A stretch of DNA of 64,000 nucleotides from Dipteris shenzhenensis (Eukaryota): assembly GCA_047967505.1 (NCBI GenBank), contig CM106538.1. The stretch is one strand, 5' to 3'. Made by a program: the position numbers and the translations under genes. Shown piece by piece: positions 4,601 to 64,000 of this stretch (position 1 is the first letter of the stretch; every line of letters begins with the position of its first letter). The notes below the pieces were generated by a model that had not been told where the DNA came from, made no database searches, and saw nothing but the letters and a program-made list of their open reading frames with translations.

Positions 4601-4643
4601 AGATCTTGTTTCATACTTATACTTTATTGTATGTATCTCTTTC

Positions 4644-10113: not shown

Positions 10114-10151
10114 ATGCACACACACACACACACACACATAAAGATGTTAAT

Positions 10152-10189
<38 letters not shown>

Positions 10190-10191
<2 letters not shown>

Positions 10192-26149: not shown

Positions 26150-26194
<45 letters not shown>

Positions 26195-36889: not shown

Positions 36890-37312
36890 AAGTACAGCCT
36901 GTACGGCTGTTCCGTACAGATTCCAGCCTGCCGCTGCTGTTCAGTACAGGCCCGCGTCCTCCTAGGTTTGATCGCTGCTACCAGCCACCTCTCTAGTCCT
37001 CTATCTGGTCTCTTTTCCGCCTCGTTTCTAGCCTCCTGCAGTTCTCTGTTTTTTTTGTGTGTGTTGTGGTGCGATCTCTGCCTTTCAGCCTTGTCAGGGT
37101 TTCCGTACACCTGTACGGTCCCCGTACAGCTCCCGTACACTGTTCGTACGGTCCAGTCTGCATCTCCGTACGGATCTGCACACAGTTCCGTACAGTCCCG
37201 CTTGCAACTCTGTCCAGTCCCGTGTCTGCATCTCTGTATAGTTCCGTCTCCAACACCGTACACATCTGCTGTTTTTTTCTGTACTTTTCCGTACAGTCCC
37301 GTGTCAGTACGC
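36890..37312 (+). promoter_or_regulatory. L1 5' UTR GTAC/CCGTAC cluster
   Basis: About 15 GTAC in ~420 bp (manual count), mostly CCGTAC. Confidence 0.6.
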
Positions 37313-37347
37313 TCTTTTTCTCCTTCTTGTCTTGCCACAGCTCAATC

Positions 37348-38533: not shown

Positions 38534-41500
38534 TGTACAGAGCCTCTGCAATGTCTCCAAGTGGAGGCTTTTCTGGAATTATGTACATAAAATGCAGCCA
38601 GATATTGTTTCCTTGCAAGAACATAATCAACACTCTAAGGTTGGTCATCATGATCACTTTGGCGGTTATGATATATATTATGCTGGTACCACTACCTACT
38701 CCGGTGTATGCATACTGGTTAGACATGAGCTGGAACCTCAGTTAGCATTCAATGACAGCAGTGGCAGATGGATGGTCATACAATTTAATGTCAATGGTGA
38801 TATTTTTGAGTTTGCATCAGTTTATGCTTCCCAGACCTCTGCCATGAGGGCTTCATTATGGGATTCTTTATGCAGATATCCATGGAGATCCAATGCATTC
38901 ATCTGTGGAGATTTTAATAATTCCCCTCTACCAAGAGATAACACCACTTCAAGATCTCATAAGCTATCATTACAAAGGCATTAATGGGATAGCATGCTAC
39001 TTTCTGTGCAGGCTGAAGATTTATGGCTGCTTCTCCAAGGGTCAGTGCCTAGATATACTTTTCATCATAATGCACTTACTACATACTGGGCAAGGCTTGA
39101 CAGATGGTATTTGTTTTACCCACAACAATTTGCAGATTTTAGCCCTCATCTCTTCATAGATTTCTCATTGGGCTTGTCAGATCATGCCCCGTTGTGGATG
39201 AATTTTCAGATTGGCATGCCTCTGGATGATTTGCCACCCCTTTCCAGTAGATTGCTGCATGTTAATCAGGCTTACTTCTGACATCACTATTTCCAGCAAA
39301 TGATCAGACTTGTAATTCATCCTTTGCCTTTGCATGCCCAGGAGGTCATGAATTATGCTTGGGACAGTTTTGTTTCTCGTATACAGAATGTCATTAGTGA
39401 GTATGGCACCTGGCATATGACTGAATGGAGGAATGAGGTTGAATGGGCAAAAAGGACAGCACAACAATTGACTGACCTTCTCAGTCAAGGCCTCTCTCTG
39501 ATTCAGAAAATGATTCCCTTTCACATGCTCGGATTAAATTGACTGCTAATGATCAGAGGAAATTGCACAAATGGCAGATTAGAGCAAGAATGAAGCTCCT
39601 CATGGATAAGGGCTGCTCATCAAAAGCCTTTTTCCAGGGCCTGCATGCTACTCGAAAGAAAAACTCATGTCTAAGGGTAAGGAAGCTAGATGGCTCTTGG
39701 ACGCACTCTTTCTCTGATCTCCAAGATGAATGCCAAAATTATTTCCAGAAATTGTTCTCTGCTCCTGGTTCCCCATCAAATCAAATGACTGATGCGAGGA
39801 CTGAATTCCTCCAATATGTTTCTGAAATAGTGGAAATGGATGATGCTCTTACCTTGGAGAGACCTTTACTGATACAGAACTTGATAATGCATTGTTCCAC
39901 CTCAGCAAATACAAGTCCCCTGACTAGGATGGCCTTACGGTGGAATTTTATATTTCTTTTTGGGATGATTTGAAAGATGTCCTCTTGCAAATGATCAATG
40001 TTGCCTGCCAAGAAAATCAGTTACCGCACTCTTGGAAGCATGGCATAGTCAAACTTGTGCCCAAAAAACATCTGTGTGACCATATGTCAGATTGGAGGCC
40101 TATTACTTTGATGCCTGTAGTTTACAAACTCATTGCCAAAATGATTGTGTATAGGCTTCACAGGATACTGAATGCAGGCCTTCATCCTCAGCAGTATGGG
40201 TTTGTGCCGCGAAGACAAATCCATGACAATATCTCCAATGCATTGATTGCAATTGAATATGCTAAGTACTCGCATCAAGATGTGCTCATATTGCAGGTAG
40301 ATATTGCTAAGGCATTTGACACTGTTCAATGAGATTTTATCTCTCAAATCATGACAAAGTTGGGCTTTGGTCCAAAGATAGCAAATGCAGTTTATTGGCT
40401 TTATTCTGGCTCTACTTCTCAGTGCATTCTTGGGGGTCATCTATCTCGGTCATGGACATTGGGTAGATTAGTTAGACAGGGCTGCCCTCTTAGTGCTCTC
40501 TTCTATGCCATTGCAACCCATCCCCTCTTAATGTATCTTGATCATCTTACAAACACAGGACAGATGACTGGTCTTAAAATCCTTGGACTGCATCTTTTTT
40601 GGCACAAGCATATGCTGATGATTCCTTCTTTATGCCACAGAATTCTCCCCGGGAAGTTCACATGCTTATGACCACTCTATCATTGTATGGATTGGCAACG
40701 GGATTGCATGTTAATTTTGACAAATCTAAATTGCTTCCCCTGAAACAATGTGACTGGCATTCTATTCTCTGGCCAGGTCAGGTGGTGCATTCCAAAGATG
40801 TAGTCAGGCATTTGGGATATCCTATAGGATGGCATATCACCAGGAAGCAGCAGTTAAAATGGATCTTCCAAAGACTTCAACATAAACTAGAATACTAGAA
40901 AATTTCTACTTGGCCGCTTCATGTCAGGCTCAGAATAGTACAGTCCATTGTAATGTCCTATGTCCAGTTCTTTTAGCCTTTGCTGCATTGGTCCTCCGGA
41001 GATATTTCAGCCTTTATGTCTCAAGCTATGAAGATGTTATGGAGGACAAAAACTGCTATGAAAGCATTGAGACTGATGAAGATGGAAATGGTGTGCTCTC
41101 CTAGGATGCATGGTGGACTTAATATCCTCAATATAAGATATCATGTACTTGCAAGGAAGGCAACTATGCTCCATACCTTTTTCCACCAACAACAGCCATG
41201 GACTTGTATGATAGCATCCATGTGTGTCAACATGAGGACTTCTACTTATGGTCATTGGACTGGAGGTTGTCATTGGGAGATTTGTAGGGAAGATACCTGG
41301 CTGTCCTTTCTCTACTGCTCTGATACCTGACTGGAAACAAGTACTTTCTAAGGTCAAATGGGCTCCTGATAATTGCTCGGGGACAAACTCAATGAGGAAA
41401 GAAAGTATTCATTGGAGTGCCATCTTTGACATTCCACTCGCTTTACAGGAACCTGTTAGGACATACAATCTCATGAAATTGGGAATTAGATACATACATG

Positions 41501-42270
41501 ATGTGGTAGATAATCAGGGCTATTTCTTATCTTTTCCTCAGGCCACTGCTTCCTATGCATTGGATTGGGAATGCACCATAGGTCGATATGGAAGAAAATC
41601 GCTGATTTGTTACATCCTTTTCTACCTGTTCCCCCTGTGGCTGACACAGACAGGCTATTGGATTGGCAATTGCAACCCTCTACTACATGCTCTCATCCTG
41701 TTCCTCTGCCTGCCTTGACCTCCATCAAAGCCTACAGGCTTCTTCAGCCTGCTCCATGGATTCAGCAATATGCTAATACTCTGTGGCATATCAGGAAGCC
41801 CCTCTCATGGTGGCGGAAGAATCTCCGGATATCATGGAAGTGTAAAATGCCTTTGAAACAAAGACTTTTTCTTTGGAGATGCATGACAGGCACATTGTCA
41901 GTGGGAGTCACACTTGCCAAACGACGCATTGCACCATCCACATGTTTAAGATGTCAGGCTCCTTCAGAGATTGTCCCTCATTTGCTTTGGCACTGCCCGT
42001 GTTCTAGGAACCTCCTCGGGAGAATTTCAGATCATCTTCGACTCCGTTTCCCAAGTCACAGATTTGGGAAACATTTTTGGTTATTTGGCAGATTTATGAG
42101 GTCTTTGTCTCAATACTCACTATTTCTCTCTTGAGTGAGATATTGGGCTCTTTGGACAATCTGGAGTGAGCATAATTTGGCATACTTGGGTCGGCAAATT
42201 CACAAGTCATATGAATCTTTCCGAGCCTCATTGCGGCAATCTTTATACGATGCCTGCCATGAGGGTGATA
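38534..42270 (+). pseudogene. L1 ORF2 (EN-RT-zf-RVT), frameshifted
   Basis: GDFNN, SDHAP, WRPITL, QYGFVPRRQI, VDIAKAFDTV, RQGCPLS, YADD, HGGLNI, CLRCQAPSEIVPHLLWHCP. Confidence 0.95.
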
Positions 42271-43720: not shown

Positions 43721-44047
43721 CAAAGATATTCCAGAGTTGTGCGTGGTGGCTCAATGGCAAGCAAAAATTATCCTCATACTCCTAGTGAGAAGAGAATGTT
43801 TGCACAAACCTACTGGTAATAAATTGAAAAACCAAAGGGCCAAATTAGCATACAAACCCAAAGTACAGCATTCACCCCTACCAATGTTCATTGGTGAATT
43901 GATCCCGCAACAAGTAATCAAAATCCATACAGAAGCACAACCCATAAAACACAAGAAACCTGCAGAGATCCAAATCATTACAAGATGAAAATCGTATGGA
44001 TGTACCATCTTAGAATCTGTGCAAAAAAACTTCTAAGTCCCTTGTGT

Positions 44048-46491
44048 TGTTGTCAGGTGGGCCTTCCTATAGCCCATCTTCCCGTCTTCATACAATTTCA
44101 CCCATGCCACACAAACCCCCTTGATAGTTCTCGACGTCTAACTTATGCACCAAGCACCAGGTAGGTCCCGTGCACCAAGCAACCCTAGAGTGCAAGAGAG
44201 GGCATCTACTACCCAAGCACTAGTACTGTTCACATCCAAGAGCAGGGTTCACTGGTCAACTGAGGGGTGAGAGGAAATGACTGTCAACAAAAACGACCTC
44301 AAAGGGGAGGGCAGAAAAAATAGGTGGAGCGGAGACGCAGACACCAAGGCTGCACACGGACTCTGACTCTAAAACCAACAAGAAGGCTAGTGAAAAGCCC
44401 GTTCTACCTAGATGATTTATTTGAGTTAGCTGCTCCTGCGAGCCCTCCCCCCTCCTTCCGTAGCCTCTACCTCCCTACCCTCCTCCGCTTCACTCCCTCG
44501 CCCTCGCCCCCCCTCGCCCTCGCCTTACCCCCCTCGCCCTCGCCTCACACCCCTCGCCCCTCGCCTCGCCCCGCCACCACGCCCTCACCCCTCGCCCCTC
44601 GCCCCCTCGCAACTCACCCCCCCGCCCCTCGCCTCGCCCCTCCGCCTCGCCCCTCGCCCCTCCGCCCCTCGCCCCTCCGCCCTTCCGCCTCGCCCCTCAC
44701 CCCCCCGCCCTCCGCCCTCGCCCTTCACCCCCCCGCCCTCCGCCCTCGCCCTTCACCCCTCCGCCCCTCCGCCCTCGCCCCTCGCCCTCGTCCCTCCCCC
44801 CCCGCCCTCGCCTCCGCCGCCGTCCCTCTCCCTCGCCTTCGACCTCTGCCCTCCGCTCTCGCCTCCGCCCTCCGCCCCCTTCCGCCTTCCGCCCTCCGCC
44901 CCCGCCATCGCCTCCGCTTCCTCCGCCCGCCTCGCTTCGCCTCGCCTTATCCTCCTCCGTCACACCCAGGCTCCATCCCTCGTCTATCTCCCCCCTTTTT
45001 GGTGGCAGCCTCTTCTTCATCGGAGGTCTCGCAGTTTGTCTTGGCGGTATGGCGGCTCCCTGCCCGGAACCGGAGGCCCAGCCGGACCCTCCCTCTCCAG
45101 ATGCCTACCGCGTGATCTTGACAGAGCAACAGTCGTCTCGGGTACAACAGGTTGCCAATGACTTTGCCCTCACTTCCGTCTATGGCAGAGTCATTGGACA
45201 CTCTCCCTCCAGATCAGCCATTAGGGACTGGCTCCAGTCCACTCTTATGCTAGAGGACAGCCACATCGAGGAGGTGGCCCTTATGGGAAGGGGCATCTCA
45301 CGACATTGGGCAGGAGAGTTCTCGGGAGGATGCAGAGCCGCCCGCCCACCTAGCGGCCCAGTTGGTATGCTCAGGGTATCTCCAGGCTATTTTTGCAGGC
45401 CTTCTGGAAGGCCTTGTGGGAGAGCTGGCGGCCGCGGAAGATTTCCTACTTCCTTTGGCTACTCGCCCACAAGGGTCTCCCAGTGGGGAGCTGGTTGCGG
45501 CAGATTGGTCAGGATGGACTTTGTCAGATTTGTCATGAGGACGAGGAGTCACCAAAACACTGCCTATGGAGCTGCACTCGCGCCCAGGAAGTGTGGAGGT
45601 GGACCTTCGGGATCCTTATTCGCGCAGCACCGGAGCTAGGTTTGATCAACTGGGGCACGTTCTGCTGGTGCAACACCACACCTGGCTTTCATCAGTTGTT
45701 CGAGGCAGACCTGCAGGACCCCATGTTCCTTATCACACAGGGGACTTGGGGGCCGCTCGAGGGCATCCCGCCGCACCTGGCAGAGGCAGACACAGGATCT
45801 CAGGAGAGGCAACCAGTCTGGGAGATTATTAGCAGCATCGCTGGTTGGCACATTTGGACCTCGCGCTGCGCGCAGATCCTCGATGGTACCTCTCTTTCGA
45901 CTGCCCACGTCATGGCCGACATCTGGAGTGAGATTATACACACTCAGAGGCCAGTGGGACCAGATACAGGGAGATTCCCGAGCTGGCCAGGAGAAGCGGA
46001 GACGTTTCCTCCGAGATTGGGATACGCACGTCGCAGGGCCTCTTCTTCGAGCATACTTCTCAGGGCCTTCAGTGGCGCTATTCACCACCTCTCTAGCTGT
46101 TTATTCACACCCGCCTGATCCCTCCGTGAGAGAGAGCTTTTTGTTTCCATTTAGGGCTGCGTCCGATTTGTGAACGCAGCCCCGTCAGCTGCAAAACTGA
46201 CCTCATGTATCTTGTTTTTTTGAAGTAATATAATCAGCACTGTTTTTTCGGCAAAAAAAAGAAAAGCCTGTTCTACATCAGACTCAAGACTTAAGAACCC
46301 TAGGAATCTAGAATATCAATTCCAACAACCGCTTCCCGAAATTGACCTTGGAACCCTGCACAAGCTGCACAAAACGATTGGCCACATAGCATGGCCTTTG
46401 CTTGATCTTCCGGGGTACTCAGGGTGGCGCCGCTTGGCTCCTTGGTGGTAGCAGTTGAATTACGAGTTGGACAGGTAACCAAGGGCCAACA
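44048..46491 (-). mobile_element. Old LTR (starts TGTTGGCCCTT at 46491), interrupted by an L1
   Basis: Homologous to 50131-50738; left end approximate; no TSD. Confidence 0.6.
44408..46260 (+). mobile_element. Internally deleted (bipartite) family B L1 with both termini and a TSD
   Basis: TSD gaaaagcc(c/t)gttctac at 44392-44407 and 46261-46276; C-rich 5' UTR, ORF1 start 45049, junction ~45298 to zf-RVT (RPRKISYFLWLLAH..CQIC..HCLWSC), poly(A). Confidence 0.92.
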
Positions 46492-52577: not shown

Positions 52578-52619
52578 GGGGACGGGGCCTATGAGACTCA
52601 GGTTTTGAGACCCTAGACT

Positions 52620-54908
52620 GCACCATTTGGAACTGTAATGGCATCTTATGGTCAGACCCAGGGAACTTCTCGGAGTCTTATACACGACGAGACATAGTCT
52701 TTTACACGGAGACACACCAGAGCCCAGAGCGTCCACTACCGATAGTCAGTGGCTACACATGGGAGTCAACCTTCAGGGATGAGACGAGGGATACAGGAGG
52801 AGTCCGAGGATCAAGCGGGGTCACAATATTGTACAGGTCTTCCCTCGCTGGAGCCATCTCCATTGAGAGGAAGGACGCACACTCCCGATTCATGTGGATC
52901 CGGATCCGACTCACAGACACCCGTGACCTTTTCATAGCAATATGCTACTTCCCACCAGACACATCCCACTTCGCCACAGTAGCACGAGAAGAGGGTGAGA
53001 CATCGCCATATGCACCCTTACATCAGGATATCCCAAACCTTTCAGCCCGCAGGGAAGTTCTCCTTGTTGGGGACTTCAACGCCAGGATGCGTACACGACA
53101 TGCACCACTCCTGGACTTTCGAGATGACTCTATCATGCTGCCAGACATGGACCTAGACGGAGCAAGTATGACTAGGACCTCATCGGACCGACACGAGCCT
53201 GTTACACCATATGGACACGTGCTCCTTGATTTGGGCAGGATGCATGATCTCATCATCTACAACGGGCTCGACCTATGGCCCTCCTTAGGTGGTTTTACTT
53301 GCTTCCCACACAGGGGGGGCACTAGTGTAGTAGATTACAGCATGGGATCCCCTACCTTCACTTCATGTATCACCGACTTCACCATAGCACCACTCCCTCC
53401 AGGAGCTGATCACACATACCTATTCTTCACTATCGCCACCCCATGCTTAGCCACACCATATAGGAAGCACGACACCTACCACGACATACACTTTGATCAC
53501 AAACTCTCACCAGCCTACTCTGGACGCCTAAACAGACTCCTAACCTACATCGATCATACCACTCATAGAGGACCGTGCTACCCTGATTAGTCGCACACTC
53601 CACGAGGCTTCCCTCCAAATCTTTCCCCACACCACACGGTCCACTAGACCACCACCTCTTGGTTCTGTATCCTGCAAAAATTGGTACGATGCGGAGTGCA
53701 AGGCTTGTATGTCGGAAGAAGCAGGCTTTTCTTCATCAAAATGACGAGGAGCTGCTGCACATCTTGTACAGCAACAACTCTAAGGATTTTTGGCAGAGAT
53801 TCCTTGAGCGTAGGTCCCCATCACCCCTCACCGACACGAGAGTCTGGCACACGTATGCACACCATCTATATGATGTCCCACACCAGCCCACTCCAGACCT
53901 CATACACACACCTCGTCCCACCACTTGCACGTTGTTCACCAGAGGGGGAGTCAAGGACGCGACATTGAAACTGCACAATGGCCGAGCTAAGGATCACGAG
54001 GGGCTATGCACTGAGTTTATCGCATATGGGATCGACACGTTAGCCCTGATCCTAGCAAAGCTATTCAATGATGCTGTTTGCCTTGGCTTCCCCCACACTT
54101 GGACACTCAACACCATCACCCCCATCCACAAGGTAGGGGATCCCATGGACCCGAGTAACTACATGACTATCATGATTGGACATGTGATGTCCAAGATCTA
54201 TGCAACTGTATTGGATGCATCGGTCAGCCTGTTCGCAAAGATGAGAGGGCTCAGAGCAGATGGTCAGGCCGGTTTCAGGCGAGACCATGGGACTATGGAT
54301 CACATACTCACAATCAGGAGTGTCATTGAGGAGGCCAGATCACGGAAGGAGAGGGTATACTATTGCTTTGTGGATTTCCGCAAAGCCTTTGACACAGTAC
54401 CTCGAGCTCGTCTTATCACACGCCTATAGACACTGGGATTTGATCAGGAGATCATCTGGGCAGTCATGGCACTGTATGAGAGAGTCTCAGGCCGAGTTCG
54501 TACAGGCGCAAGTTGGACAGATGAGATCCTAAGTACCATAGGGGTCAAACAGGGTTGTCCCTTATCACCGACCCTGTTTGGCCTCTACATCGATGAGCTT
54601 GAGACTTTCATGGGGACGTTCGGAGGGACTAGTTGCTCACTTGCCGGGATCATCATCAGGATTCTTCTTTATGTAGATGACGTGGCACTCTTGTCGTCCA
54701 CACCCGAGGGGCTCCAGCGACACCTGGATGCACTGCAGGCTTTTTGTTTATCCCATGATTTGGAGGTCAACCTTGGCAAGACCAAGGTCATGATCTTTAA
54801 CACCTCTCGAGCAAACATGCAACGGAAACAGTTTACTTTTACTTTGGGTGGTAAACCAGTTGAGATCGTATCCTCATACACTTACTTGGGGGTCATCTTC
54901 TCCGGCCC
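52620..54908 (+). pseudogene. ORF2 EN and RT, frameshifted
   Basis: WNCNG, CYFPP, GDFNAR, SVVDY, QAGFRR, CFVDFRKAFDTV, GVKQGCPLSPTLF, LYVDD, KTKVMIFN. Confidence 0.93.
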
Positions 54909-54980
54909 TGTCTGAGGGGGGGGGGGTTTCCTAACACTTCCGGAAGTATTACCGGAGGCCTAGGGCCACTGGTGCGAGAA

Positions 54981-56609
54981 GCGAGTAAGACGTGCCATAA
55001 GTGTCACTGATGGTACGTAGGTGAGTGCTTGTCGATGGTGTCAACTATGTGCAAGCGGTAAATGGTGTCAACTATGTGCAAGCGGTACAAGTGCTGAAGT
55101 GATGTGAGCAGAAGAAAACCAAAGCGGAACAACATCATGAAAGCCATCCCTCGACATGAATAGCAAGAACTTCAACCACATGACACAGGTCCGTTGTACC
55201 AGGTGAAGGGAGAGGAGGGGAGGAGAACACAACGAAAAGAGATTTTAGAGTAGCGAGCAGAGATGGGAAGTAGCATAACTCATTAGAAAGCAAGATGATT
55301 GATACACTCCCAGAAGATACACACGAGGCGAGCTCTTGACTCTAGCCTCTCACTCCTTCACTCACGCCTCTCGCCCCTACGAGAATGTCCCTCCTCCTTT
55401 CCCCTTTCCCCCTCTTCACCTTCTCCTCCTCTGCTCCACCCCCCGCTGCCAATCTCCACTCCTTCTTCCTATTGGATGTCTTCTTACACCCTTAGCCATC
55501 CTTAGCCATTCCACCGTTTGTGGGCCGCTCTGTCCTTGATGGCTTCCGCAACACTCCAGCCTGTCCTGGGTCAGTGAATCCCGTGCTCCATGTGTTCTCT
55601 GCGCTCCTGACACTAGGTGGTTGAGAGGGTTGGTGCACCACCTATGCCTCTTAACTGTTGGACTGCTTCCCATGTGCACCAACAGGTGTATCCCGTGTAC
55701 CATTGCGCCAGTACTTCCCTCTGATTGACTTTGACCATGGTGAGTGAGGTTGAGGTTTGGCACTCTTCAGTCATGTATTGCTTCCGCCATACCCAAGTCA
55801 TGTATAGGTCAAGTCATGTCCAAGTCAAGTCCATGTCATGTCCAAGTCATGTCCATGTCAAGTCATGTCCATGTCAAGTCATGTCCAAGTCTGTTCCATG
55901 TCACGTCCAAGATGTGAACACATGTGAACACGCTGCGACTAGGTATGACCAAGGTCTAACAACTTGGCATGTTGCTGAGGTGATCATGACGTGACTCTTG
56001 GTGGGTCGCCATAAACTTTGAGTACACTTTGAGTACAACAGATCCCCCGCCACTATCATTCACCGTCCCGGTGAATGACTGAGGATCTGTGTGAGAGAAA
56101 GTTAAGTATAAATTACAAATAAGAAAGTGACCTTGTGGTTGATATCCCAAAACTGAAAAGAAAGGGTTCATGGCCTTACAACTGTAAAATTGAAAAAAAA
56201 ACTGGCTCATGGCCATACAACTCCAAAATTCCTTATTTACATGAGACTGCAGAATCCAAAGGGACCGAGCTCGCAAAAAGAAATGCCGAACTAAAAGATC
56301 CAGGAGCTACTGCTTGCTGGATGAAGGTCAGGGAGGGGGAGGGGGTGGGTGTGGTGGGTGTGCCGATGTTCCGGGGCTGGTCCTTGCCTCTTCCTCGACT
56401 GTGTCCATGAGGTTGCGGATGTCCTCGTATTTGGATTTATACCTGTGGTAGCCAGACCTGTAATGTTCACATCGAGATTTGAGAGCAGCATTTTCATCTT
56501 GCAGCCCATGGAAGTTGTCCTGCAACTTGGAATGTGAAACTTGGAGATGGTCTTCCGCCTCGCGAATCTGCTTCATTTGACTCCGCACCACCTCCACCTG
56601 TTGATCCAC
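54981..56609. repeat. 1.63-kb direct repeat, copy 1
   Basis: Nearly identical to 58969-60580 (about 6 substitutions, a 1-bp and a 16-bp indel seen). Confidence 0.97.
55794..55912. repeat. Short tandem array of gtcatgtcca/gtcaa units (also at 59781-59883)
   Basis: Direct reading; the two copies differ by one 16-bp unit. Confidence 0.9.
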
Positions 56610-58247
56610 AGTATGCTTATCCGCAGCCAGTGAGGTGTATCTGTCCTGTAGGGCGGCAAGCTCCCGCTGGATTTGAGCCTGTTGGGCTGAATGATGGTCC
56701 TCCAAAACTTTCTTGGTGGCTGTCCACTCTGCCTCCTTTGCGACAAGACATTGCTGAAACTCGTCGTGCTGAGTTTTCCACGCAGCCTCCCTTGCCTGTA
56801 GAATTGCTCCCCACTCCGCTTCTTTCATTTGCAATGTTGTATCCCATTCTTTATGCATGCTGGCTACCTGCTTCTCATGTTCCAAGCGGAGGTGTTGCTT
56901 CTGTGACCGAAGCTTGCAAACCTGACCCGTAGTATTAAAGAGGGAGGCACCCATCTGAATGAAGCTGTCATCTATAATGCGCTGAGCCATATGAAGGGAC
57001 CTTTTAACCCATGCATACCTGTCCCGGTAGGTCATTCGGTCAGCCATGTCAATAAGTTCGCCATATTCCTCGAAGGCTGCTTTCATCCCCTCTTGCTCTG
57101 GGTCCTCGAGAGCTGCCACTAGAGCCAGTGTGTCGATGTCTAGGTAACAGCTTGGAGCTTGGGATACCTTCTTGTTGGAAGCGATTGTCTCTTGCAAGGG
57201 AAGTGTGAAAATTTGGTCCAGGTCCTCCTCCTCCATGCAAACAGGAGACCGCTTCCGCTTTAAGGCATACAGCAGCCGTTTGTGTTCCTGGCTCTGTTCG
57301 TCTATTTGGGCCTCATGGGTGAATAGATCTCCTAAGGAGGTTGCGAAGTAGGTATCCAACATATCATTTTGAGGAAGTGGAGGACAATCCGCTGGAAAAG
57401 GTATCTTACCCCCAGCAAAAATAACCTCGCCAGGTCGAGTTTCCAGTAAGTCCTGTTCAGCAGCCTCCACACTTGGTTCAGGGGTCAGTCGTCGAGACAC
57501 CCGGGGTGGTGTCTTCGCATCACCAGTGGCTCCCAAAGTAAGATTCAAGTTCAATAACCTGTGTCGTTCTGATGCCTCTCCATCAAGAGATTCCAAGGCA
57601 GAGGTGCCTGCTGCCATAACTTCTGTCGAGGGATCCCCCTGAGTTGGGGGGTTAATGTGCATATCTTTGCACCCTACTGACCCTGATGAGATGATCGGAG
57701 GGGAAATGGTCATGACTGCGGGTGAGGTAAGTGGTATTGTCCTGCCATGGTGGGTGAGACCTGAGGAGGGCAGGGGAGTGACCGGAAGAACATCATCAGG
57801 GAAATCAAAATCTACCTCGAAGGGGATGGATGGAGAGGCGACTCCTGCATGAGCAACTGATGGCAAAGCTCCAGAGGCTGGCCCAAGAGGGAATGGCTCA
57901 GAAACCTGTGCTACAGATGTGGGTGGAGCAAGAGTGGGAATGGGGACTGGAGATGCAGATGTGGGGGGAGCAAGAGTGGGAATGGGGACTGGAGATGCAG
58001 ATGTGGGGGGAGCAAGAGTGGGAATGGGGACTGAAGAGGAAGAGAGGATAGAGACTGATGCAGCAGAGGCCGAGGATGCTGGGGCCGCACGAAGGGCCAG
58101 TGGAGCTGATCTCAAGTGGGGGATCATAGGAGCGGAGGGTGGGCGGTGTGAGGAGAGGATGAAGTATGTGAAGGTGGAGGAAAAAGTGCAGGCGTTGCAG
58201 CCCGCCACTGGTGCAAGAGGTAGGTGAGGTGAGGTCCACAAGTACAA
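56328..58247 (-). CDS. Antisense accessory ORF, C-terminal part: Pro/Ser-rich linker and long coiled coil
   Basis: 639-codon open frame; 14-aa repeat PIPTLAPPTSASPV x3; E/Q/K/L-rich helical C-terminus. Confidence 0.8.
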   Translation of the reverse strand: MYLWTSPHLPLAPVAGCNACTFSSTFTYFILSSHRPPSAPMIPHLRSAPLALRAAPASSASAASVSILSSSSVPIPTLAPPTSASPVPIPTLAPPTSASPVPIPTLAPPTSVAQVSEPFPLGPASGALPSVAHAGVASPSIPFEVDFDFPDDVLPVTPLPSSGLTHHGRTIPLTSPAVMTISPPIISSGSVGCKDMHINPPTQGDPSTEVMAAGTSALESLDGEASERHRLLNLNLTLGATGDAKTPPRVSRRLTPEPSVEAAEQDLLETRPGEVIFAGGKIPFPADCPPLPQNDMLDTYFATSLGDLFTHEAQIDEQSQEHKRLLYALKRKRSPVCMEEEDLDQIFTLPLQETIASNKKVSQAPSCYLDIDTLALVAALEDPEQEGMKAAFEEYGELIDMADRMTYRDRYAWVKRSLHMAQRIIDDSFIQMGASLFNTTGQVCKLRSQKQHLRLEHEKQVASMHKEWDTTLQMKEAEWGAILQAREAAWKTQHDEFQQCLVAKEAEWTATKKVLEDHHSAQQAQIQRELAALQDRYTSLAADKHTVDQQVEVVRSQMKQIREAEDHLQVSHSKLQDNFHGLQDENAALKSRCEHYRSGYHRYKSKYEDIRNLMDTVEEEARTSPGTSAHPPHPPPPPP

Positions 58248-58986
58248 GTGTGTGTGCTTCGGTGTGTGCGATTTCGAACAGTGGCCCGGAATGTTGAATA
58301 AAAGAGGGATGCAAAATCATACTGAGTGATGGTGAAGAGAGCATTGAGAGCAGGACGGATACCTTTCGTGATGTAGTAATGCCCGGGTGCTGAATAGAAG
58401 CGAGTGAAGAAGTAGCGTGTGATCACTGCTTCTCTGCTTCCACCTTCCAAAACCTTTTTGCAATCATATCCCCTCCTGTTGGGTTTGCACTGTGAAAGGA
58501 ATGAAAGGAGATGTGGTGAATTGTCGGAAGGAGGCTGAATAGGGAGAGCAGGGAGCCCCATGTACTGTGAGACCAAATTGGGTGTGAGAAGCTGCCTGGA
58601 GCCCATGAACTCAAAAGTGTCTGTGACATAGTCATAAGATCTGATGAATCCTGTACACAGTTCCACATCCACCGGAGGGAAGATGACCTTGTCGAACTCA
58701 GTTAGACTGAGGGTCTGGATCTCGGAAGATGTCAATACGGAGGATAGTTTGAGGTTCGGATCAAGAAGAGGTTTAAACATAACCCGAACGTGGGAGAGGG
58801 AAGGGGTGGTTACCGAAGGGCTCTGTATCTCCGTTGGCCCACCCGACCCTTCTGAATGTGGTCTCCGTGCGGAGGGGGTGTAATCTGAGCCCCCATGGTC
58901 GGAAGAGGAGGCACTGGAGCTCTGAGAGTGGAAAAGAACCCCCCGCTGCTTGCAAAGTACACAGGTAGGCGAGTAAGACGTGCCAT
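58124..58986 (-). CDS. Antisense accessory ORF, N-terminal part: domain resembling plant transposon protein (Transposase_32/ATHILA-ORF-like)
   Basis: VELCTGFIRSYD..LTPNLVSQYMGLP..YDFASLF..CGPHLTYLL; likely start MARLTR at 58986 in another frame; domain name is by-eye only. Confidence 0.62.
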
Positions 58987-60580
58987 AAGTGTCACTGATG
59001 GTACGTAGGTGAGTGCTTGTCGATGGTGTCAACTATGTGCAAGCGGTAAATGGTGTCAACTATGTGCAAGCGGTACAAGTGCTGAAGTGATGTGAGCAGA
59101 AGAAAACCAAAGCGGAACAACATCATGAAAGCCATCCCTCGACATGAACAGCAAGAACTTCAACCACATGACAGAGGTCCGTTGTACCAGGTGAAGGGAG
59201 AGGAGGGGAGGAGAACACAACGAAAAGAGATTTTAGAGTAGCGAGTAGAGATGGGAAGTAGCATAACTCATTAGAAAGCAAGATGACTGATACACTCCCA
59301 GAAGATACACACGAGGCGAGCTCTTGACTCTAGCCTCTCACTCCTTCACTCACGCCTCTCGCCCCTACGAGAATGTCCCTCCTCCTTTCCCCTTTCCCCC
59401 TCTTCACCTTCTCCTCCTCTGCTCCACCCCCCGCTGCCAATCTCCACTCCTTCTTCCTATTGGATGTCTTCTTACACCCTTAGCCATCCTTAGCCATTCC
59501 ACCGTTTGTGGGCCGCTCTGTCCTTGATGGCTTCCGCAACACTCCAGCCTGTCCTGGGTCAGTGAATCCCGTGCTCCATGTGTTCTCTGCGCTCCTGACA
59601 CTAGGTGGTTGAGAGGGTTGGTGCACCACCTATGCCTCTTAACTGTTGGACTGCTTCCCATGTGCACCAACAGGTGTATCCCGTGTACCATTGCGCCATA
59701 CTTCCCTCTGATTGACTTTGACCATGGTGAGTGAGGTTGAGGTTTGGCACTCTTCAGTCATGTATTGCTTCCGCCATACCCAAGTCATGTATAGGTCAAG
59801 TCATGTCCAAGTCAAGTCCATGTCATGTCCAAGTCATGTCCATGTCAAGTCATGTCCAAGTCTGTTCCATGTCACGTCCAAGATGTGAACACATGTGAAC
59901 ACGCTGCGACTAGGTATGACCAAGGTCTAACAACTTGGCATGTTGCTGAGGTGATCATGACGTGACTCTTGGTGGGTCGCCATAAACTTTGAGTACACTT
60001 TGAGTACAACAGATCCCCCGCCACTATCATTCACCGTCCCGGTGAATGACTGAGGATCTGTGTGAGAGAAAGTTAAGTATAAATTACAAATAAGAAAGTG
60101 ACCTTGTGGTTGATATCCCAAAACTGAAAAGAAAGGGCTCATGGCCTTACAACTGTAAAATTGAAAAAAAAACTGGCTCATGGCCATACAACTCCAAAAT
60201 TCCTTATTTACATGAGACTGCAGAATCCAAAGGGACCGAGCTCGCAAAAAGAAATGCCGAACTAAAAGATCCAGGAGCTACTGCTTGCTGGATGAAGGTC
60301 AGGGAGGGGGAGGGGGTGGGTGTGGTGGGTGTGCCGATGTTCCGGGGCTGGTCCTTGCCTCTTCCTCGACTGTGTCCATGAGGTTGCGGATGTCCTCGTA
60401 TTTGGATTTATACCTGTGGTAGCCAGACCTGTAATGTTCACATTGAGATTTGAGAGCAGCATTTTCATCTTGCAGCCCATGGAAGTTGTCCTGCAACTTG
60501 GAATGTGAAACTTGGAGATGGTCTTCCGCCTCGCGAATCTGCTTCATTTGACTCCGCACCACCTCCACCTGTTGATCCAC
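58969..60580. repeat. 1.63-kb direct repeat, copy 2, ending 5 nt before the PBS
   Basis: See copy 1; offset 3988 bp. Confidence 0.97.
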
Positions 60581-60585
60581 CTTTA

Positions 60586-60603
60586 TGGCGATCACGGTGG
60601 GAC
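60586..60603 (+). other. Primer-binding site, probably tRNA-Arg
   Basis: TGGCGATCACGGTGGGAC is complementary to a tRNA-like 3' end GUCCCACCGUGAUCG-CCA; isoacceptor assignment is from memory and unverified. Confidence 0.7.
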
Positions 60604-60662: not shown

Positions 60663-62210
60663 ATGCCGAGTAGTTCTGAAACATTTGAAGGAGCTAGTGA
60701 GAGAACTAGGAGGTACTTGAGGAGAGTGGAGAAAAGACTTCCGGCAAACCAAACTAGGTACAAGAAGCATTACGTGCGACGTAAGTTTGCGAAGTCCTCA
60801 ACTCGAGCACAAAGTGAGCCCATTGGAGCAGTAGCCAGAGCAAGTAACTTCATCGACACTCTCATTGACTTGGACCAACAAGAACCCTGGTGGTCAGATC
60901 CGGACTCCGGAGAAGAAGAAGTGCAAAGCGGAGAACAGGTGAAAGAAGAGGGTACTAAGGACGAGGCCTCCTCAGGGACTCATCAAGGTCAAGGCAGCCC
61001 CTCTCCTCCTCCTGCAACGATGTCTTCATCAACCACCTCTTCTACCGGAGTGGTGACTCCATCTGCTCCCGCCTCAACCTCTTGTGGACAAGCTGCTACC
61101 TCATCTGTTATGCATAGCTCCGGGCTCCTAGCTAATCCTTCTTCTACATCTATTCCATTGGGGGGTACTTTTGCTCCGGCCATGCCTTTACCTGCCATGA
61201 TGGTTTCATCTCCCTTTCCATCCACACCGGTGTTGCCTTTTCCACCACCTTCTTCCTTCCCTTCTGCTTACTCATCCATGACTTCAACTCCGTCCCTCTC
61301 TTTCCCAAATGCTCTCCCATCCTCTTTCACCCCCACATCTTCCATGTTCTCACCCTTTCCTTCTGCAACACCGAGACCCCCCACTTACGCCCTACCATCT
61401 GGGTACACTTCCTCTATGACTACATCAGTAGTGACTTCTCCATTGTGGTCCTCCATAGGAGGGGTTGTCGGGGTGGTCTCCTCCTCGAGAGCACCAACAC
61501 TCATTACAGCTCCATCGGGACTCCCTCCAACTCTTGCATCCTCTCCAACCTCTCGGGTGGGGATGGCTCCCTCTCCAACCTCTCGGGTGGGAATGGCCGT
61601 TCTCAGTCCTCCAGACAGAGCTAGACTTCTCGAGCTACTCAACAAGGTCCACGTGAAGACTCAAAAGTTCAAAGGCCACCTCCATGAAGATGCGGAAGCT
61701 CATGTGAGGAAGTTCCTCACAGCATGTAGAGCTAAAGGTGTGGAGAATGAGCATGCGTTCCTTCACATCTTTCCCTCGTCATTGGAGGATGCTGCGGATG
61801 TATGGTACAGTCAATTTCCTCCGGACCACTTCCAGACGTGGACAGACCTAAGGGAGGAATTCTTACGCACTTTCAAGTTGGAAAAATTCGAACACATGAT
61901 TGTCCAAGAGTTATCCACTGACACCATGAAGCTTGGAGAGAGCATCTCTGAGATGTATACAAGGATGAGGGTCTTGGCGGCAAAGATGTCGGTGCCACCC
62001 AATGACGCCGTCATGAAGGGGTGGTTTTTGAAGGCTTTACCCTCCACCATTGCTATAAGGCTGGTTGACAAACTTCCTGAGCATGCCTCACTACAAGAAT
62101 TTCTGAGGGAAGCGGTGAAGATGGAACGGTCCCAGTTAAGTTTCGCCTCAACACCCGCTCAGACCGCCCAATTTCCGAGAGAAGAGGGCTCACAGGCAAT
62201 GTATTGTTGA
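60663..62210 (+). CDS. gag: Gag with a long Ser/Pro-rich N-terminal region, C-terminally truncated
   Basis: KFKGHLHEDAEAHVRKF..FPSSLEDAADVWY..TWTDLREEFLRTF..MKLGESISEMYTR. Confidence 0.92.
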   Translation: MPSSSETFEGASERTRRYLRRVEKRLPANQTRYKKHYVRRKFAKSSTRAQSEPIGAVARASNFIDTLIDLDQQEPWWSDPDSGEEEVQSGEQVKEEGTKDEASSGTHQGQGSPSPPPATMSSSTTSSTGVVTPSAPASTSCGQAATSSVMHSSGLLANPSSTSIPLGGTFAPAMPLPAMMVSSPFPSTPVLPFPPPSSFPSAYSSMTSTPSLSFPNALPSSFTPTSSMFSPFPSATPRPPTYALPSGYTSSMTTSVVTSPLWSSIGGVVGVVSSSRAPTLITAPSGLPPTLASSPTSRVGMAPSPTSRVGMAVLSPPDRARLLELLNKVHVKTQKFKGHLHEDAEAHVRKFLTACRAKGVENEHAFLHIFPSSLEDAADVWYSQFPPDHFQTWTDLREEFLRTFKLEKFEHMIVQELSTDTMKLGESISEMYTRMRVLAAKMSVPPNDAVMKGWFLKALPSTIAIRLVDKLPEHASLQEFLREAVKMERSQLSFASTPAQTAQFPREEGSQAMYC

Positions 62211-62214
62211 GTAG

Positions 62215-64000
62215 AGAAATGCACATACACTCAAGATCTCTGTTTATGAGTTGAAATTGACAACTGACGTACATTTCCAAGTACGCATGGCGGATCAACG
62301 CAAGGTGAAGCCTATGGGGGCTATAAAAGGTGTTCACATGAAGATTGGGGGAGTTACATTCCTGTCCAATTTTGTTGTACTTAATATGACGGAGGGTGAG
62401 CAGACTTATCCTCTACTTCTTGGTAGACCATGGTTACGCTCAGCAAAGGCCATTCAAGATTGGTCAAGTGATGAAGTTCGACTACCTTTGGGATCCACAT
62501 CCTTAGAAATAGACATGGTTACTGGAAGGGCCCGCCACCGACCTATGGAACTTGGGGAAGAGGATTTTGAAGAAGAAGAAGGGGTGGAAGAGGAGCGATG
62601 GGCACTTGGGGATTGGCCCCTACAGGAAGAAGAGTTGGCCTATGTGGAGGACTCACCCTTCCAAGGTGAAACCGATGTAACAGCGGCACGAGATGTTGGT
62701 GAGAGCTTGACGTACTTGCTGGAACATGCTAGACCAGATGAGGAAGAAGCTGTCATCTTGGATTGGATGGGGGCCTTGGGATCCTTAGCCATCAACATGG
62801 TGGAGTTGTGTCTAGAAGAGGATCCTGAAGCCCATTTTGGTACTTCACGGAATGCGCAAGAGGTGAGCCAGGAAGCCTCTTCCCCACCTGGTTTGGCTGA
62901 TCTCATGTATGAACGGATGCCTTTTGGCCTTCTTAATAATCCCCACATGTATCAGCGAATGATGTCCGCAAGTACCAGACCAAGTGGTGGGGAGGCCACC
63001 AGGGTGACTCAAAGACAAGACCATGAAGCAGCAATGGAAGCAATGGATGCACACGACATGGATGCCTCACACCAAGAAAATGACCATGGGGTCACAACAG
63101 AGGAGGAAGAGGATCCTATGCAAGAAGATGATGAGCGAGCGGAGCATAATGATGGTCCTGAAGAGAACACTCATGAATCTATGGAAGAAGAAGATGACCA
63201 CATAGATCATGGGCTGGCTGAGCACAATGATGGTATTGGAGAATACACTCATGGATCTGCAGAAGAAGAGGATGACCACCTACTTACTGATGTCATTCAA
63301 AGGCAGGAGGTACCGGAAATGACTCTTGGAAGGGTTATTGAATCCATTATGCAATCTGACCAACCTAGGAGGGGTCAAGAGGCCGGACAATTTGAAGGAG
63401 CCGTCCACATTCACACTGGAGTCTGGAACTTCAGACCTTCAAGGCAAGCCCACAGCATACAGGGAGAAGAAGATGTCGCGGACCTTGTTCTACTCGACTT
63501 ATATATGTCAGAAGCTGACTCCCCAACGACACAGGAGGTTCATGACACTACATACGAGGTGGTTGGACTACCATGTAGAGGAATGCTCAAGCAAGCACAA
63601 AAAGGAAAGAAGAGAATGGGCCCAATTGTTGCCTCTACATTTCAACCATTTCCAGAACACACCCAACAGTCCTATCCGAGCTCTTGGATGGAAGAAGTAG
63701 TGGGGAATTTTTCTCTAGATGATTCTCCTGCGCACCCAGCAGTGGGAGTAGAAGAACCGAACAACTCCACATCAGGAAGCATACCTCAGGTTGACCATGC
63801 CAGGGATTGGAGGTATCTGAACATAGGGACAGAAGACCAACCGCGACATCTTAAGGTAGCCAGTTGGGTCTGGGAACATGACTATCTCCTTGCTGCATTG
63901 TCTGATTTTTTTCAAGAGTATGTTGATGTCTTTGCCTGGTCATATAAGGATTTAAAGGGAGTACCCACTGAGTTCATGGAACATCGCATCGATCTATATC
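62215..64000 (+). CDS. pol: Pol 5' part: aspartic protease C-half, ~430-aa acidic spacer and RT N-terminus (open frame to the window end, absent from the ORF track)
   Basis: Translated by hand in frame 1: VRMADQRKVKPMG..FVVLNM..YPLLLGRPWL; EYVDVFAWSYKDLKGVPTEFMEHRIDL. The catalytic Asp motif is not intact. Confidence 0.9.

What the first reader, a model, noticed from the sequence alone, without database searches (positions are those of the whole stretch)
54909..60603. Gypsy 5' region / putative 5.7-kb LTR built from ~1.4 tandem copies of an antisense gene
Seen: between the insertion point in the LINE and the PBS lie two near-identical 1.63-kb repeats 3988 bp apart. The minus-strand coding sequence starts inside repeat 2, crosses both repeat boundaries without a break and ends inside repeat 1. 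Each repeat therefore holds the gene's 3' end, the intergenic/promoter region and its first codons. The LTR end next to the PBS (gatccac, 60580) is a point in the middle of the coiled-coil codons. Known: antisense accessory ORFs of Tat/Retand elements normally lie between pol and the 3' LTR. Inference: the accessory gene has been absorbed into the LTR as a circularly permuted unit (unequal recombination, strand-transfer error or a circular intermediate), so solo LTRs would carry a protein gene.
Basis: partly seen in the sequence, partly recalled or inferred. Interest (0 to 1): 0.75.

Follow-up and report, generated by a model that had tools for sequence, protein, structure and literature searches.

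The report
Tandem antisense gene unit before gag
A 4-kb unit holding one orphan minus-strand gene is present as 1.4 head-to-tail copies directly in front of a plant retrotransposon's gag gene, where its long terminal repeat should be, but whether the whole block really is that repeat cannot be decided from this window.

Summary
The repeat is real. R1 (54981-56609) and R2 (58969-60580) differ by 6 substitutions, one 1-nt indel and one 16-nt indel. Their edges are sharp and the start-to-start period is 3988 bp, giving 1.40 unit copies.

One minus-strand gene runs from M into R1. Its last 93 codons match the rest of the gene in composition, codon-position GC, heptad register and a confident AlphaFold helix. 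The R1|M junction is therefore native. R2's right edge is a break at a codon boundary. It lies 5 nt before a PBS-like TGG and 82 nt before gag's ATG.

- There is no in-frame ATG in R2; the first is at 58780, inside M.
- The coding sequence is split into two ORFs (218 and 599 aa) at an ATGA overlap.
- The ORFs have no TRP28/PMD domain and no detectable homologue.

LTR status cannot be tested, because the 3' end lies outside the window and no eukaryotic DNA collection was open. R1/R2 as an ordinary LTR pair is rejected.

Best reading (0.35): the array sits in, and serves as, the element's terminal repeat. Rivals are a tandem LTR-retrotransposon complex with a smaller hidden LTR, and an LTR-less core joined to an unrelated gene array. 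Interest is moderate.

The parts
52595..54915 (+). Interrupted plant LINE: endonuclease plus reverse transcriptase ORFs. Its 3' part is missing.
   Evidence: Exo_endo_phos E=4.1e-6; RVT_1 E=2.5e-5 and 9.7e-17, with the profile reached to position 204/205 at about 54897. Similarity to other LINE copies ends at 54885-54903. No LINE resumption was found up to 64000.
54910..54980 (.). X: a unique 71-nt stretch between the LINE and R1. It starts with TG and holds a G11-12 run and a 20-nt palindrome. Its origin is unknown: LTR start, filler or LINE tail.
   Evidence: Sequence. No similarity to the end of M. Palindrome at 54932-54951.
54981..56609 (.). R1, repeat copy 1. Read on the minus strand it holds the gene's last 93 codons plus stop, the 3' UTR with an AATAAG signal, the spacer, and a non-functional copy of the promoter-side flank.
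56610..58968 (.). M: a unique 2359-nt segment holding most of the minus-strand coding sequence.
   Evidence: No Pfam domain on either strand.
58969..60580 (.). R2, repeat copy 2. It holds the promoter/5'-UTR side of the complete gene, the spacer, and a truncated second copy of the gene's 3' end.
58124..58780 (-). ORF A from its first ATG (218 aa). Orphan, with no family.
   Evidence: Pfam: none. 0 hits among 727 candidates. Atlas best score 0.84. AF2 pLDDT 33.
56328..58127 (-). ORF B from its first ATG (599 aa): a Pro/Ser/Thr-rich part with three 14-aa repeats, then a long helix, an acidic patch and a poly-Pro end. Its ATG overlaps ORF A's stop (ATGA).
   Evidence: AF2 on residues 430-662 gives one helix covering residues 431-646, mean pLDDT 85.7. 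The exhaustive search gave only 2 spurious hits.
57914..58037 (.). 42-nt x 3 tandem repeat inside ORF B, encoding the 14-aa repeats.
60299..60580 (-). Truncated second copy of ORF B's last 93 codons plus stop, with one R-to-Q change. It is cut at the V570 codon boundary.
   Evidence: tblastn 98.9% over 93 aa.
60586..60603 (+). PBS-like sequence beginning with TGG. It lies 5 nt after R2's end, or 6 nt after the last CA.
   Evidence: Sequence. It is the only one of the TGG sites considered here that also has G at the position pairing with tRNA C61 (one search list plus my own check). No tRNA gene in the window to compare against. Not found in the held supplements of PMC6317226.
60663..62210 (+). 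gag ORF from its first ATG.
   Evidence: Retrotrans_gag E=1.3e-7 at residues 377-451 of the 523-aa frame.
62215..63999 (+). Next ORF, shifted +1 relative to gag and open to the window's end. No detectable domain.
56107..56237 (.). AT-rich signal region. On the plus strand: TATAAA at 56107 and AATAAG at 56118. On the minus strand: AATAAG at 56232-56237 (about 95 nt after the stop) and several TTGTA motifs. The same set recurs in R2 at 60078-60208.
   Evidence: The assignment as the gene's poly(A) region and/or the element's TATA box is inference.

Best explanation
What it is:
- A 3,988-bp unit is present as 1.40 head-to-tail copies (54981-60580). It lies between a broken LINE RT and the PBS-like sequence and gag of a Ty3/gypsy-like retrotransposon.
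- The unit holds one orphan minus-strand gene made of two overlapping ORFs, of 218 and 599 aa. The second ORF ends in a helix of about 216 residues. The unit also holds about 0.8-1 kb of flanking spacer.
- Only one gene copy is complete. Its promoter and 5' UTR lie in R2, its body in M, and its last 93 codons and poly(A) signals in R1.
- The second copy is cut at codon 570. That cut is joined 5 nt before a TGG PBS-like sequence.

Most likely reading:
- The array occupies, and serves as, the element's 5' terminal repeat. Either the whole block or the proximal 3,988-bp unit plays that role. Only 82 nt separate the cut from gag's ATG, so the gag-pol promoter must lie in R2.
- The arrangement arose when a retroelement core (PBS-gag-pol) became joined at its PBS end to a concatemer or array of the accessory-gene unit. 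This could be a forced template switch at the RNase-H-trimmed RNA end, or capture of an LTR-less cDNA. Units flanking the core can then act as LTRs.

Shown: the repeat, the native gene continuity at R1|M, the break at R2|PBS, and the adjacency to gag.
Inferred: the LTR function, the mechanism, and any protein function. By analogy with antisense aORFs, the protein may be a dimerising or regulatory factor, or the antisense RNA itself may act.
For: - Repeat anatomy.
- Native continuity across 56609|56610. The edge is a codon boundary, and the heptad register stays constant for 28-residue windows starting at residues 539-579.
- The 93-aa tail has charged/polar (EKQRD) content 0.37 and codon-position GC 0.65/0.38/0.57. 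The M-encoded part has 0.38 and 0.60/0.37/0.54. The other five frames have EKQRD 0.15-0.23, and the antisense of the PBS side has 0.16.
- AF2 places one continuous helix across the junction, with block pLDDT 87-88 there.
- Immediately right of the break lie a TGG PBS-like 18-mer and gag, with no room for another LTR. The sequence from 60663 onwards reads as a basic, protein-like N-terminus.
- The block begins at the point where the LINE is lost, with TG.
- No plus-strand domain is hidden in R or M: 0 of 19 ORFs reached a curated cut-off.
- Antisense accessory ORFs, some with SMC-like coiled coils, and tandem arrays are typical of plant non-chromovirus gypsy elements (PMC11963269 section 11; PMC7264820 passages).
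Against: - The 3' LTR, the TSD and the PPT are outside the window, so no defining LTR feature is shown.
- TG has a 1-in-16 chance, and the LINE break is only located to within tens of nt.
- The TGG is 6 nt after the last CA, whereas Neumann et al. use 0-5 (PMC6317226). No tRNA match could be tested.
- An LTR with two 99.6%-identical 1.6-kb internal repeats should be unstable to recombination and to strand-transfer slippage.
- A simple retrotransposition cycle from an array-plus-core locus predicts an LTR of M+R. It does not predict X+R+M+R, so X and R1 need a further event.
- No second copy of the family is visible. Neither the antisense ORFs nor gag have database relatives. Multi-copy status is therefore unknown.
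Confidence: 0.35

Rival explanations
1. Tandem or complex LTR-retrotransposon structure with a smaller, ordinary LTR hidden inside the 1.63-kb repeat.
- R would equal a PPT-proximal stretch, plus the true LTR, plus the PBS and a shared 5' leader.
- R1-M-R2 would then be a gag/pol-less derivative that keeps only the antisense accessory gene as its internal region.
- It would share its downstream LTR with the autonomous copy. That copy's long leader would contain a remnant of the gene's 3' end.
- The PBS-like site at 60586 would be a relic or chance.
For: - Near-identical direct repeats flanking 2.4 kb are the normal signature of LTR-internal-LTR units copied at one insertion.
- Tandem LTR-RT arrays sharing internal LTRs are reported as common in plants, especially for gypsy elements (PMC11899658 abstract). 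Template switching can fuse two parent RNAs (PMC1950507 abstract).
- Autonomous and non-autonomous partners typically share the LTR, the PBS, the leader and the PPT region (general knowledge).
- One plus-strand candidate, 58807-59724, has a 15/15 purine tract, TG...CA ends, 5/6 terminal inverted repeat and an adjacent TGG. It would place the whole CDS (58780-56328) inside an internal region.
- 4 of the 6 substitutions cluster at 55161-55299, and none lies between 55300 and 56166.
Against: - Equally strict LTR-like signatures occur 26 times in the window on both strands, about 1 per 5 kb, so the candidate is at chance level.
- Its left copy would lack its first 162 nt.
- No candidate internal PBS has a tRNA-like pattern.
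- The left end of the block is not an LTR start, so an extra truncation is needed.
- The break sitting exactly at a PBS-like site would be a coincidence.
Confidence: 0.25
2. The array is not part of the retrotransposon. It would be a locally tandem-duplicated 4-kb gene unit of two or more copies. A retroelement core lacking its 5' LTR was inserted or joined into copy 2 (a failed second strand transfer, or a deletion). The rest of copy 2, starting at the first base of M, would continue beyond the element's 3' end. The structure would be a private, immobile rearrangement.
For: - It explains in one step why R2 ends where the PBS-like sequence begins, and why R1|M is native.
- It explains the sharp repeat edges.
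- No other copy is seen in the window.
- The gene has no TE-family domain.
Against: - LTR-less insertions starting at the PBS are rare (general knowledge).
- Two rare events would be needed within the time of 0.37% divergence.
- The LINE's loss at the block's left end stays unexplained.
- An antisense coiled-coil ORF with internal tandem repeats looks like known retrotransposon aORFs.
Confidence: 0.2
3. R1 and R2 are simply the two LTRs of a small separate element (R1-M-R2), on either strand.
For: Direct repeats at 99.6% identity flanking 2.36 kb.
Against: - The repeat starts GC and ends AC, not TG...CA.
- There is no TGG or PBS after R1 on the plus strand, or after R2 on the minus strand.
- There is no purine tract adjacent to the second repeat on either strand.
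- The flanks (GAGAA / CTTTA) give no TSD.
- The ORF runs natively through the R1|M edge, so that edge cannot be an LTR|PBS border.
Confidence: 0.03
4. Assembly artefact: a false tandem duplication.
For: Near-identical 1.6-kb repeats are hard to assemble.
Against: - There are no Ns in the window.
- The copies differ by 6 substitutions and two indels.
- The order R-M-R cannot come from merging two alleles of one locus.
Confidence: 0.05

Closest known systems
Antisense accessory ORFs (aORF-3R) of plant Ty3/gypsy elements: Retand, Grande, RIRE2, PvRetro13
   Same: - A long ORF antisense to gag-pol, with its own signals.
- Coiled-coil (SMC-like) parts in some members.
- Tandem repeats nearby.
- No clear homologues outside TEs (PMC11963269 section 11; PMC7264820 passages).
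   Different: - Those ORFs lie between pol and the 3' LTR. This one lies upstream of the PBS, in 1.4 tandem copies.
- 97% of the Retand clusters studied there carry TRP28 (PF04195). Here no TRP28 or PMD hit appears even at E<=10.
- Retand LTRs are 315-1194 bp.
Tandem or complex LTR-retrotransposon structures sharing internal LTRs
   Same: Head-to-tail repetition with near-identical repeats made at one event. The proposed origin is template switching during reverse transcription (PMC11899658 abstract; PMC1950507 abstract).
   Different: - The repeated segment here has no canonical LTR ends, PBS or PPT.
- The two 'internal regions' differ completely: antisense gene versus gag-pol.
- The gene reads through one repeat edge.
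Retroviral genes lying in or starting from LTRs: MMTV sag in U3 and HTLV-1 HBZ, which is transcribed antisense from the 3' LTR (both recalled). Only the search listings were seen, for the MMTV endogenous-virus papers and the HBZ 3'-LTR preprint.
   Same: A protein gene overlapping a terminal repeat. In the HBZ case the gene is antisense, with its promoter in the repeat.
   Different: - Those genes are short and partly internal, and they are found in animal retroviruses.
- Here a complete gene of about 2.5 kb (the two ORFs together) plus partial copies would lie in the repeat of a plant element, and its LTR status is unproven.
Giant LTRs of Ogre/Tat-type elements (recalled).
   Same: LTRs of several kb are not in themselves unheard of in plants.
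   Different: No report was found, in the searches listed, of such an LTR holding a full protein gene or a 4-kb internal duplication. The lineage could not be assigned here.

Membership tests
5' LTR of an LTR retrotransposon (whole block 54910-60580) | A near-identical second copy at the element's 3' end | not testable with these tools
   The element runs off the window at 64000. No eukaryotic DNA collection was available.
5' LTR of an LTR retrotransposon (whole block 54910-60580) | TG...CA termini with a short inverted repeat | tested here: inconclusive
   TG at 54910 and CA at 60578-79, but only TG/CA match. A TGTC...GACA pairing needs the end at 60604. The LINE break is not located to the base.
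5' LTR of an LTR retrotransposon (whole block 54910-60580) | PBS (TGG...) 0-5 nt after the LTR end, complementary to a tRNA 3' end or to a self-primer | tested here: inconclusive
   - TGG at 60586 lies 6 nt after CA, or 5 nt after the repeat end.
- There is no tRNA in the window to compare against.
- A 10-nt complement of 60582-60591 exists at 59977-59986, but such matches are at chance level (E=36).
- Criteria are taken from PMC6317226.
5' LTR of an LTR retrotransposon (whole block 54910-60580) | Target-site duplication and resumption of the interrupted LINE | not testable with these tools
   The 3' flank is outside the window. No LINE resumption was found up to 64000.
R1/R2 as an LTR pair of a separate small element | TG...CA ends, a PBS after the first repeat, a PPT before the second, and a TSD | tested here: not met
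   GC...AC ends, no TGG at the start of M, no adjacent purine tract and no TSD. The ORF is native across the edge.
Retand/Tat antisense aORF (TRP28 type) | Transposase_28 (PF04195) domain in the antisense ORF | tested here: not met
   Pfam finds no such hit at E<=10. The Atlas gives only sub-0.85 leads to PF20167, PF03078, PF09331 and PF10536.
Retand/Tat antisense aORF (TRP28 type) | Position between pol and the 3' LTR; RT phylogeny in the Retand/Tat clade | not testable with these tools
   The RT/RH/INT domains and the 3' region are outside the window.
Ty3/gypsy LTR retrotransposon | gag domain, followed by PR-RT-RH-INT in that order | tested here: inconclusive
   Retrotrans_gag E=1.3e-7. The next ORF has no Pfam or PDB hit. 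The PR-like and RT-start motifs I recognised come from recall only.
Tandem LTR-RT array sharing internal LTRs | Three or more LTR copies with canonical borders alternating with internal regions of one family | tested here: inconclusive
   Only two repeat copies are visible. Internal LTR-like signatures are at chance level.
Coiled-coil protein | A long helix with heptad periodicity | tested here: met
   Heptad scan. AF2 gives a single helix of 216 residues, mean pLDDT 85.7. Oligomeric state was not tested.

The most novel reading that the evidence does not exclude
The terminal repeat of this retrotransposon is itself a circularly permuted protein-gene unit. It would have been born when a PBS-gag-pol core was joined into a head-to-tail array or circle of the accessory gene.

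Consequences:
- Solo LTRs would carry the gene.
- If the LTR is one 3,988-bp unit, the full ORF would be reconstituted only across LTR-LTR junctions, that is, in tandem LTRs or 2-LTR circles.
- Such a structure would be a de novo origin of an LTR from a gene array.
Probability: 0.25. Interest if true: 0.7.

Novelty: new variant of a known kind. Interest (0 to 1): 0.4.

Why it matters
If the block or unit is repeated at the 3' end, three things would follow:
- It would be a plant LTR that carries a complete protein gene with its own promoter and terminator.
- It would be a worked example of how a new LTR can arise from a tandem gene unit.
- It would show how accessory ORFs move between internal and terminal positions.

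It would also bear on annotation, because LTR finders would misread R1/R2 as an LTR pair. If instead it is a private rearrangement or a tandem complex with an ordinary LTR, it is an ordinary by-product of retrotransposon recombination. The only remaining interest would then be the orphan coiled-coil ORF.

Tried and rejected
- R1/R2 as LTRs on the plus or minus strand: rejected. No TG/CA, PBS, PPT or TSD, and the ORF is native across the edge.
- Residual homology beyond the repeat edges (an older, longer array): none found.
- A small canonical LTR inside R: 13 loose candidates against a shuffle mean of 2.27. The strict class occurs 26 times in the window, so it carries no signal. The PBS-like TGG list gave no convincing site.
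- Self-priming: the 10-nt complement is at chance level in the 6-kb self-comparison.
- LINE resumption, or X being LINE sequence: no evidence either way.
- A degraded gag/pol hidden on the plus strand of R/M: 0 of 19 ORFs reached a Pfam cut-off. One had a 16.5-bit PsV_CP_C match, below the 27-bit cut-off.
- Homologues:
  - 0 hits for ORF A among 727 candidates.
  - 0 hits for ORF B residues 300-662 among 4923 candidates.
  - 0 hits for gag residues 330-523 among 669 candidates. The gag result shows the word-indexed set is poor for this family.
  - The exhaustive search of 1.84 billion representatives gave 2 hits at E<=1e-3, both repeat or coiled-coil noise.
- Atlas: best scores 0.84 and 0.86, below the 0.9 lead level.
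- PDB sequence search: nothing for the pol ORF; two non-significant hits for ORF A.
- AF2 of ORF A: pLDDT 33, unusable, so no fold search was run.
- tRNA genes: 0. Rfam families: 0.
- PBS strings in the held supplements of PMC6317226: 0 files with occurrences, and only 17 kb of those supplements is held.
- Not run: complex prediction and fold search.
- Not used: genome contigs, because it holds bacteria and archaea only.
- Closed: the viral contigs and metagenome contigs collections. Other copies of the family stayed unchecked.

Full report
**Setting.** The window is plant DNA rich in LINE fragments. Several ORFs carry Exo_endo_phos, RVT_1, DUF4283 or zf-RVT domains. It has no Ns, no tRNA genes and no Rfam family. 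The finding lies at the right end of the window. There a plus-strand LINE (endonuclease 52595-53590, RT 53587-54915) loses its reading frame and its similarity to other copies at about 54886-54915.

**The repeat.** Self-comparison gives one strong direct repeat: R1 at 54981-56609 and R2 at 58969-60580, start-to-start 3988 bp.
- Aligned, the copies differ by 6 substitutions, a 1-nt indel and a 16-nt indel inside an 11-nt microsatellite. The substitutions are at 55161, 55186, 55258, 55299, 56167 and 56473. That is about 0.37% substitution divergence.
- With plant LTR rates that I recall (about 0.7-1.3e-8 per site per year) this corresponds to roughly 0.15-0.3 Myr. That figure is recall, not a tool result.
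- The edges are sharp. Local alignments of the flanks score no better than shuffles: 433/500, 256/500 and 360/500 shuffles reached the observed score.
- No other copy of R, of M, of the antisense ORFs or of gag/pol exists in the window.
- The block R1-M-R2 is 5600 nt, or 1.40 units.

**The minus-strand gene.** Two long minus-strand frames overlap at 58124-58316: ORF A (58124-59032, 302 aa stop-to-stop) and ORF B (56328-58316, 662 aa).
- The ORF A frame has no ATG until 58780, which lies in M, 189 nt left of R2.
- ORF A's TGA (58126-58124) overlaps the first ATG of the ORF B frame (58127) as ATGA. From their ATGs the products are 218 and 599 aa.
- I could not decide whether they are two cistrons, one gene with an intron, or one gene with a frameshift.
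- ORF B holds three 14-aa repeats encoded by a 42-nt x 3 array. It ends in a long helical region, an acidic patch and a poly-proline tail.

**The R1|M junction is native.** Four observations support this:
- The junction falls between the codons for T569 and V570.
- The best heptad register is the same for all 28-residue windows starting at residues 539-579.
- The 93 residues encoded in R1 have the same charged/polar (EKQRD) content (0.37 against 0.38) and the same codon-position GC (0.65/0.38/0.57 against 0.60/0.37/0.54) as the M-encoded part. The other five frames give EKQRD 0.15-0.23, and the antisense of the sequence right of R2 gives 0.16.
- AlphaFold2 without an alignment predicts one uninterrupted helix over residues 431-646. 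Mean pLDDT is 85.7, with 87-88 in the two blocks flanking the junction.

The right edge of R2 is therefore a break in a second, partial copy of the gene. The R1|M edge is not a deletion scar or an LTR border.

**Signals.**
- On the gene's strand an AATAAG lies about 95 nt after the stop, with several TTGTA motifs further on.
- The same AT-rich patch reads TATAAA and AATAAG on the plus strand (56107/56118 in R1, 60078/60089 in R2).
- A CT-rich tract with a TAAAAT motif at about 59190-59250 on the minus strand would suit a plant promoter and 5' UTR. This is my inference.
- The gene's transcription unit thus seems to start in R2 and end in R1, leaving about 0.8 kb of spacer per unit.

**What the gene is.**
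- Pfam finds nothing for either ORF at E<=0.01. At E<=10 it lists only generic coiled-coil noise for the C-terminal half of ORF B (21 families) and one weak VMAP-M20 hit (E=0.033) for ORF A.
- In particular there is no Transposase_28 (TRP28) or PMD hit.
- The word-indexed protein search gave no hit for ORF A or for ORF B residues 300-662.
- The exhaustive search of 1.84 billion representatives gave two hits at E<=1e-3. Both are repeat or coiled-coil artefacts.
- The Atlas gave only sub-0.9 neighbours. For ORF A these were several plant-transposon families, to be treated as a lead only.
- The gag domain also found nothing in the word-indexed set. Absence of hits therefore partly reflects poor coverage of this TE family.
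- AF2 of ORF A failed, with pLDDT 33.

**The retroelement.**
- Right of R2 come 5 nt, then an 18-mer starting with TGG (60586-60603), then an ORF whose first ATG is at 60663. This ORF carries Retrotrans_gag at E=1.3e-7.
- Its N-terminus reads as a basic protein, so no LTR can hide between the break and gag.
- The next ORF (62215-63999, +1 frame) has no Pfam or PDB match. The RT is outside the window.
- 'Gypsy' therefore rests on gag plus motifs I recognise from memory. 'Tat/Retand' is unsupported.

**Is the 5.7-kb stretch an LTR?** None of the defining features can be tested: the twin copy, the TSD and the PPT are all out of reach. What can be seen is weak.
- There is a TG at the approximate LINE break and a CA 6 nt before the TGG.
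- Neumann et al. accept 0-5 nt (PMC6317226, passages read).
- A 10-nt complement of the post-repeat sequence exists inside R, which would meet their self-priming rule. It is at chance level in the 6-kb self-comparison.

**Alternatives tested.**
- R1/R2 as an ordinary LTR pair fails on every canonical feature on both strands, and on the native ORF continuity.
- A smaller canonical LTR inside R cannot be shown. The neatest candidate (58807-59724) would place the whole CDS in an internal region. Signatures as strict as this one occur 26 times in the window.
- No plus-strand coding remnant lies in R or M.

**Reading.** All surviving models must explain one junction: mid-gene (codon 570) joined to a PBS-like site.
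- I rank first (0.35) the reading that the gene-unit array occupies and serves as the terminal repeat. It would have arisen when a PBS-gag-pol core was joined to a concatemer or array of the unit. A template end at the PBS is a natural switch or capture point. That step is inference.
- I rank second (0.25) a tandem or complex LTR-RT structure with an ordinary LTR hidden in R and a gag/pol-less partner carrying only the antisense gene. Such complexes are reported as common in plants (PMC11899658 abstract; PMC1950507 abstract).
- I rank third (0.2) an unrelated tandem gene array hit by an LTR-less core.
- Each model leaves something unexplained. The first leaves X and R1. The second leaves the PBS coincidence and the left end. 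The third leaves the LINE break and needs two rare events.
- The sequence just after the element's PPT would discriminate them at once.

**Comparison with the literature.**
- Antisense accessory ORFs of Retand, Grande, RIRE2 and PvRetro13 lie between pol and the 3' LTR. They often come with tandem arrays and sometimes with SMC-like coiled coils. 97% of the Retand clusters studied carry TRP28, and their LTRs are 315-1194 bp (PMC11963269, abstract and section 11; PMC7264820, passages).
- The present ORF shares the orientation, the coiled coil and the tandem repeats. It does not share the domain or the position.
- A phrase search for ORFs or genes within LTRs returned 18 papers (16 listed). By their titles and abstract starts, none describes a plant LTR carrying a gene. 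The one I opened (PMC1560396, passage) concerns a host gene embedded within an LTR retrotransposon, not a gene in an LTR.
- The aORF review contains no occurrence of 'in the LTR' or 'within the LTR'.
- These searches do not prove absence from the literature.

**Unchecked.**
Copy number, other family members and the 3' end all stay unchecked.
- The additional files of PMC11963269 were not consulted.
- The supplements of PMC6317226 that were held as text (17 kb) did not contain the PBS strings.

Noticed in passing
window 58124-58127 (minus strand): The stop codon of ORF A and the first ATG of the ORF B frame overlap as ATGA. This could be a stop-start (reinitiation) arrangement, a frameshifted single gene, or chance.
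   Followed up: partly
window 62215-63999 (+): The ORF after gag is 595 aa and open, but has no Pfam or PDB match. By eye it has only the C-terminal half of a retropepsin-like region with no D-T/S-G motif. A very acidic low-complexity stretch of about 430 aa follows, before what looks like the start of an RT. It is in the +1 frame relative to gag.
   Followed up: partly
window 54917-54951: At the LINE/block junction there is a run of 11-12 G followed by a 20-nt near-palindrome (54932-54951). This could be junction filler or a homopolymer-prone site.
   Followed up: no
window 56056-56078 and 60027-60049: A 23-nt palindrome (20 of 23 positions pair) sits in each repeat, about 30 nt upstream of the plus-strand TATAAA. 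On the minus strand it lies just past the gene's poly(A)-signal region.
   Followed up: no
window 55035-55087 / 59023-59075 and 55794-55911 / 59780-59882: Each repeat holds an exact 27-nt x 2 tandem and an 11-nt microsatellite-like array. The only large indel between R1 and R2 (16 nt) lies in the microsatellite-like array.
   Followed up: yes
window 60582-60591 vs 59977-59986 (and 56006-56015): The 10 nt just after R2 have a perfect reverse complement inside R. This formally meets a published self-priming criterion, but it is no rarer than other 10-mers in the region.
   Followed up: yes
window 2783-5654, 25307-27873, 36596-42134, 44464-46118: At least four more degraded plant LINE copies are present, with DUF4283, endonuclease, RT or zf-RVT pieces. 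They are 30-40% identical at the protein level to the interrupted LINE where comparable.
   Followed up: partly
window 10000-14000 and 44000-46000: GC-rich islands (0.55-0.62 against about 0.43-0.50 around them). They hold long overlapping ORFs on both strands (for example 10349-11469) that have no Pfam family.
   Followed up: no
window 61540-61597: A 30-nt x 1.9 tandem repeat inside the Ser/Thr/Pro-rich N-terminal half of the gag ORF duplicates a 10-aa motif.
   Followed up: no
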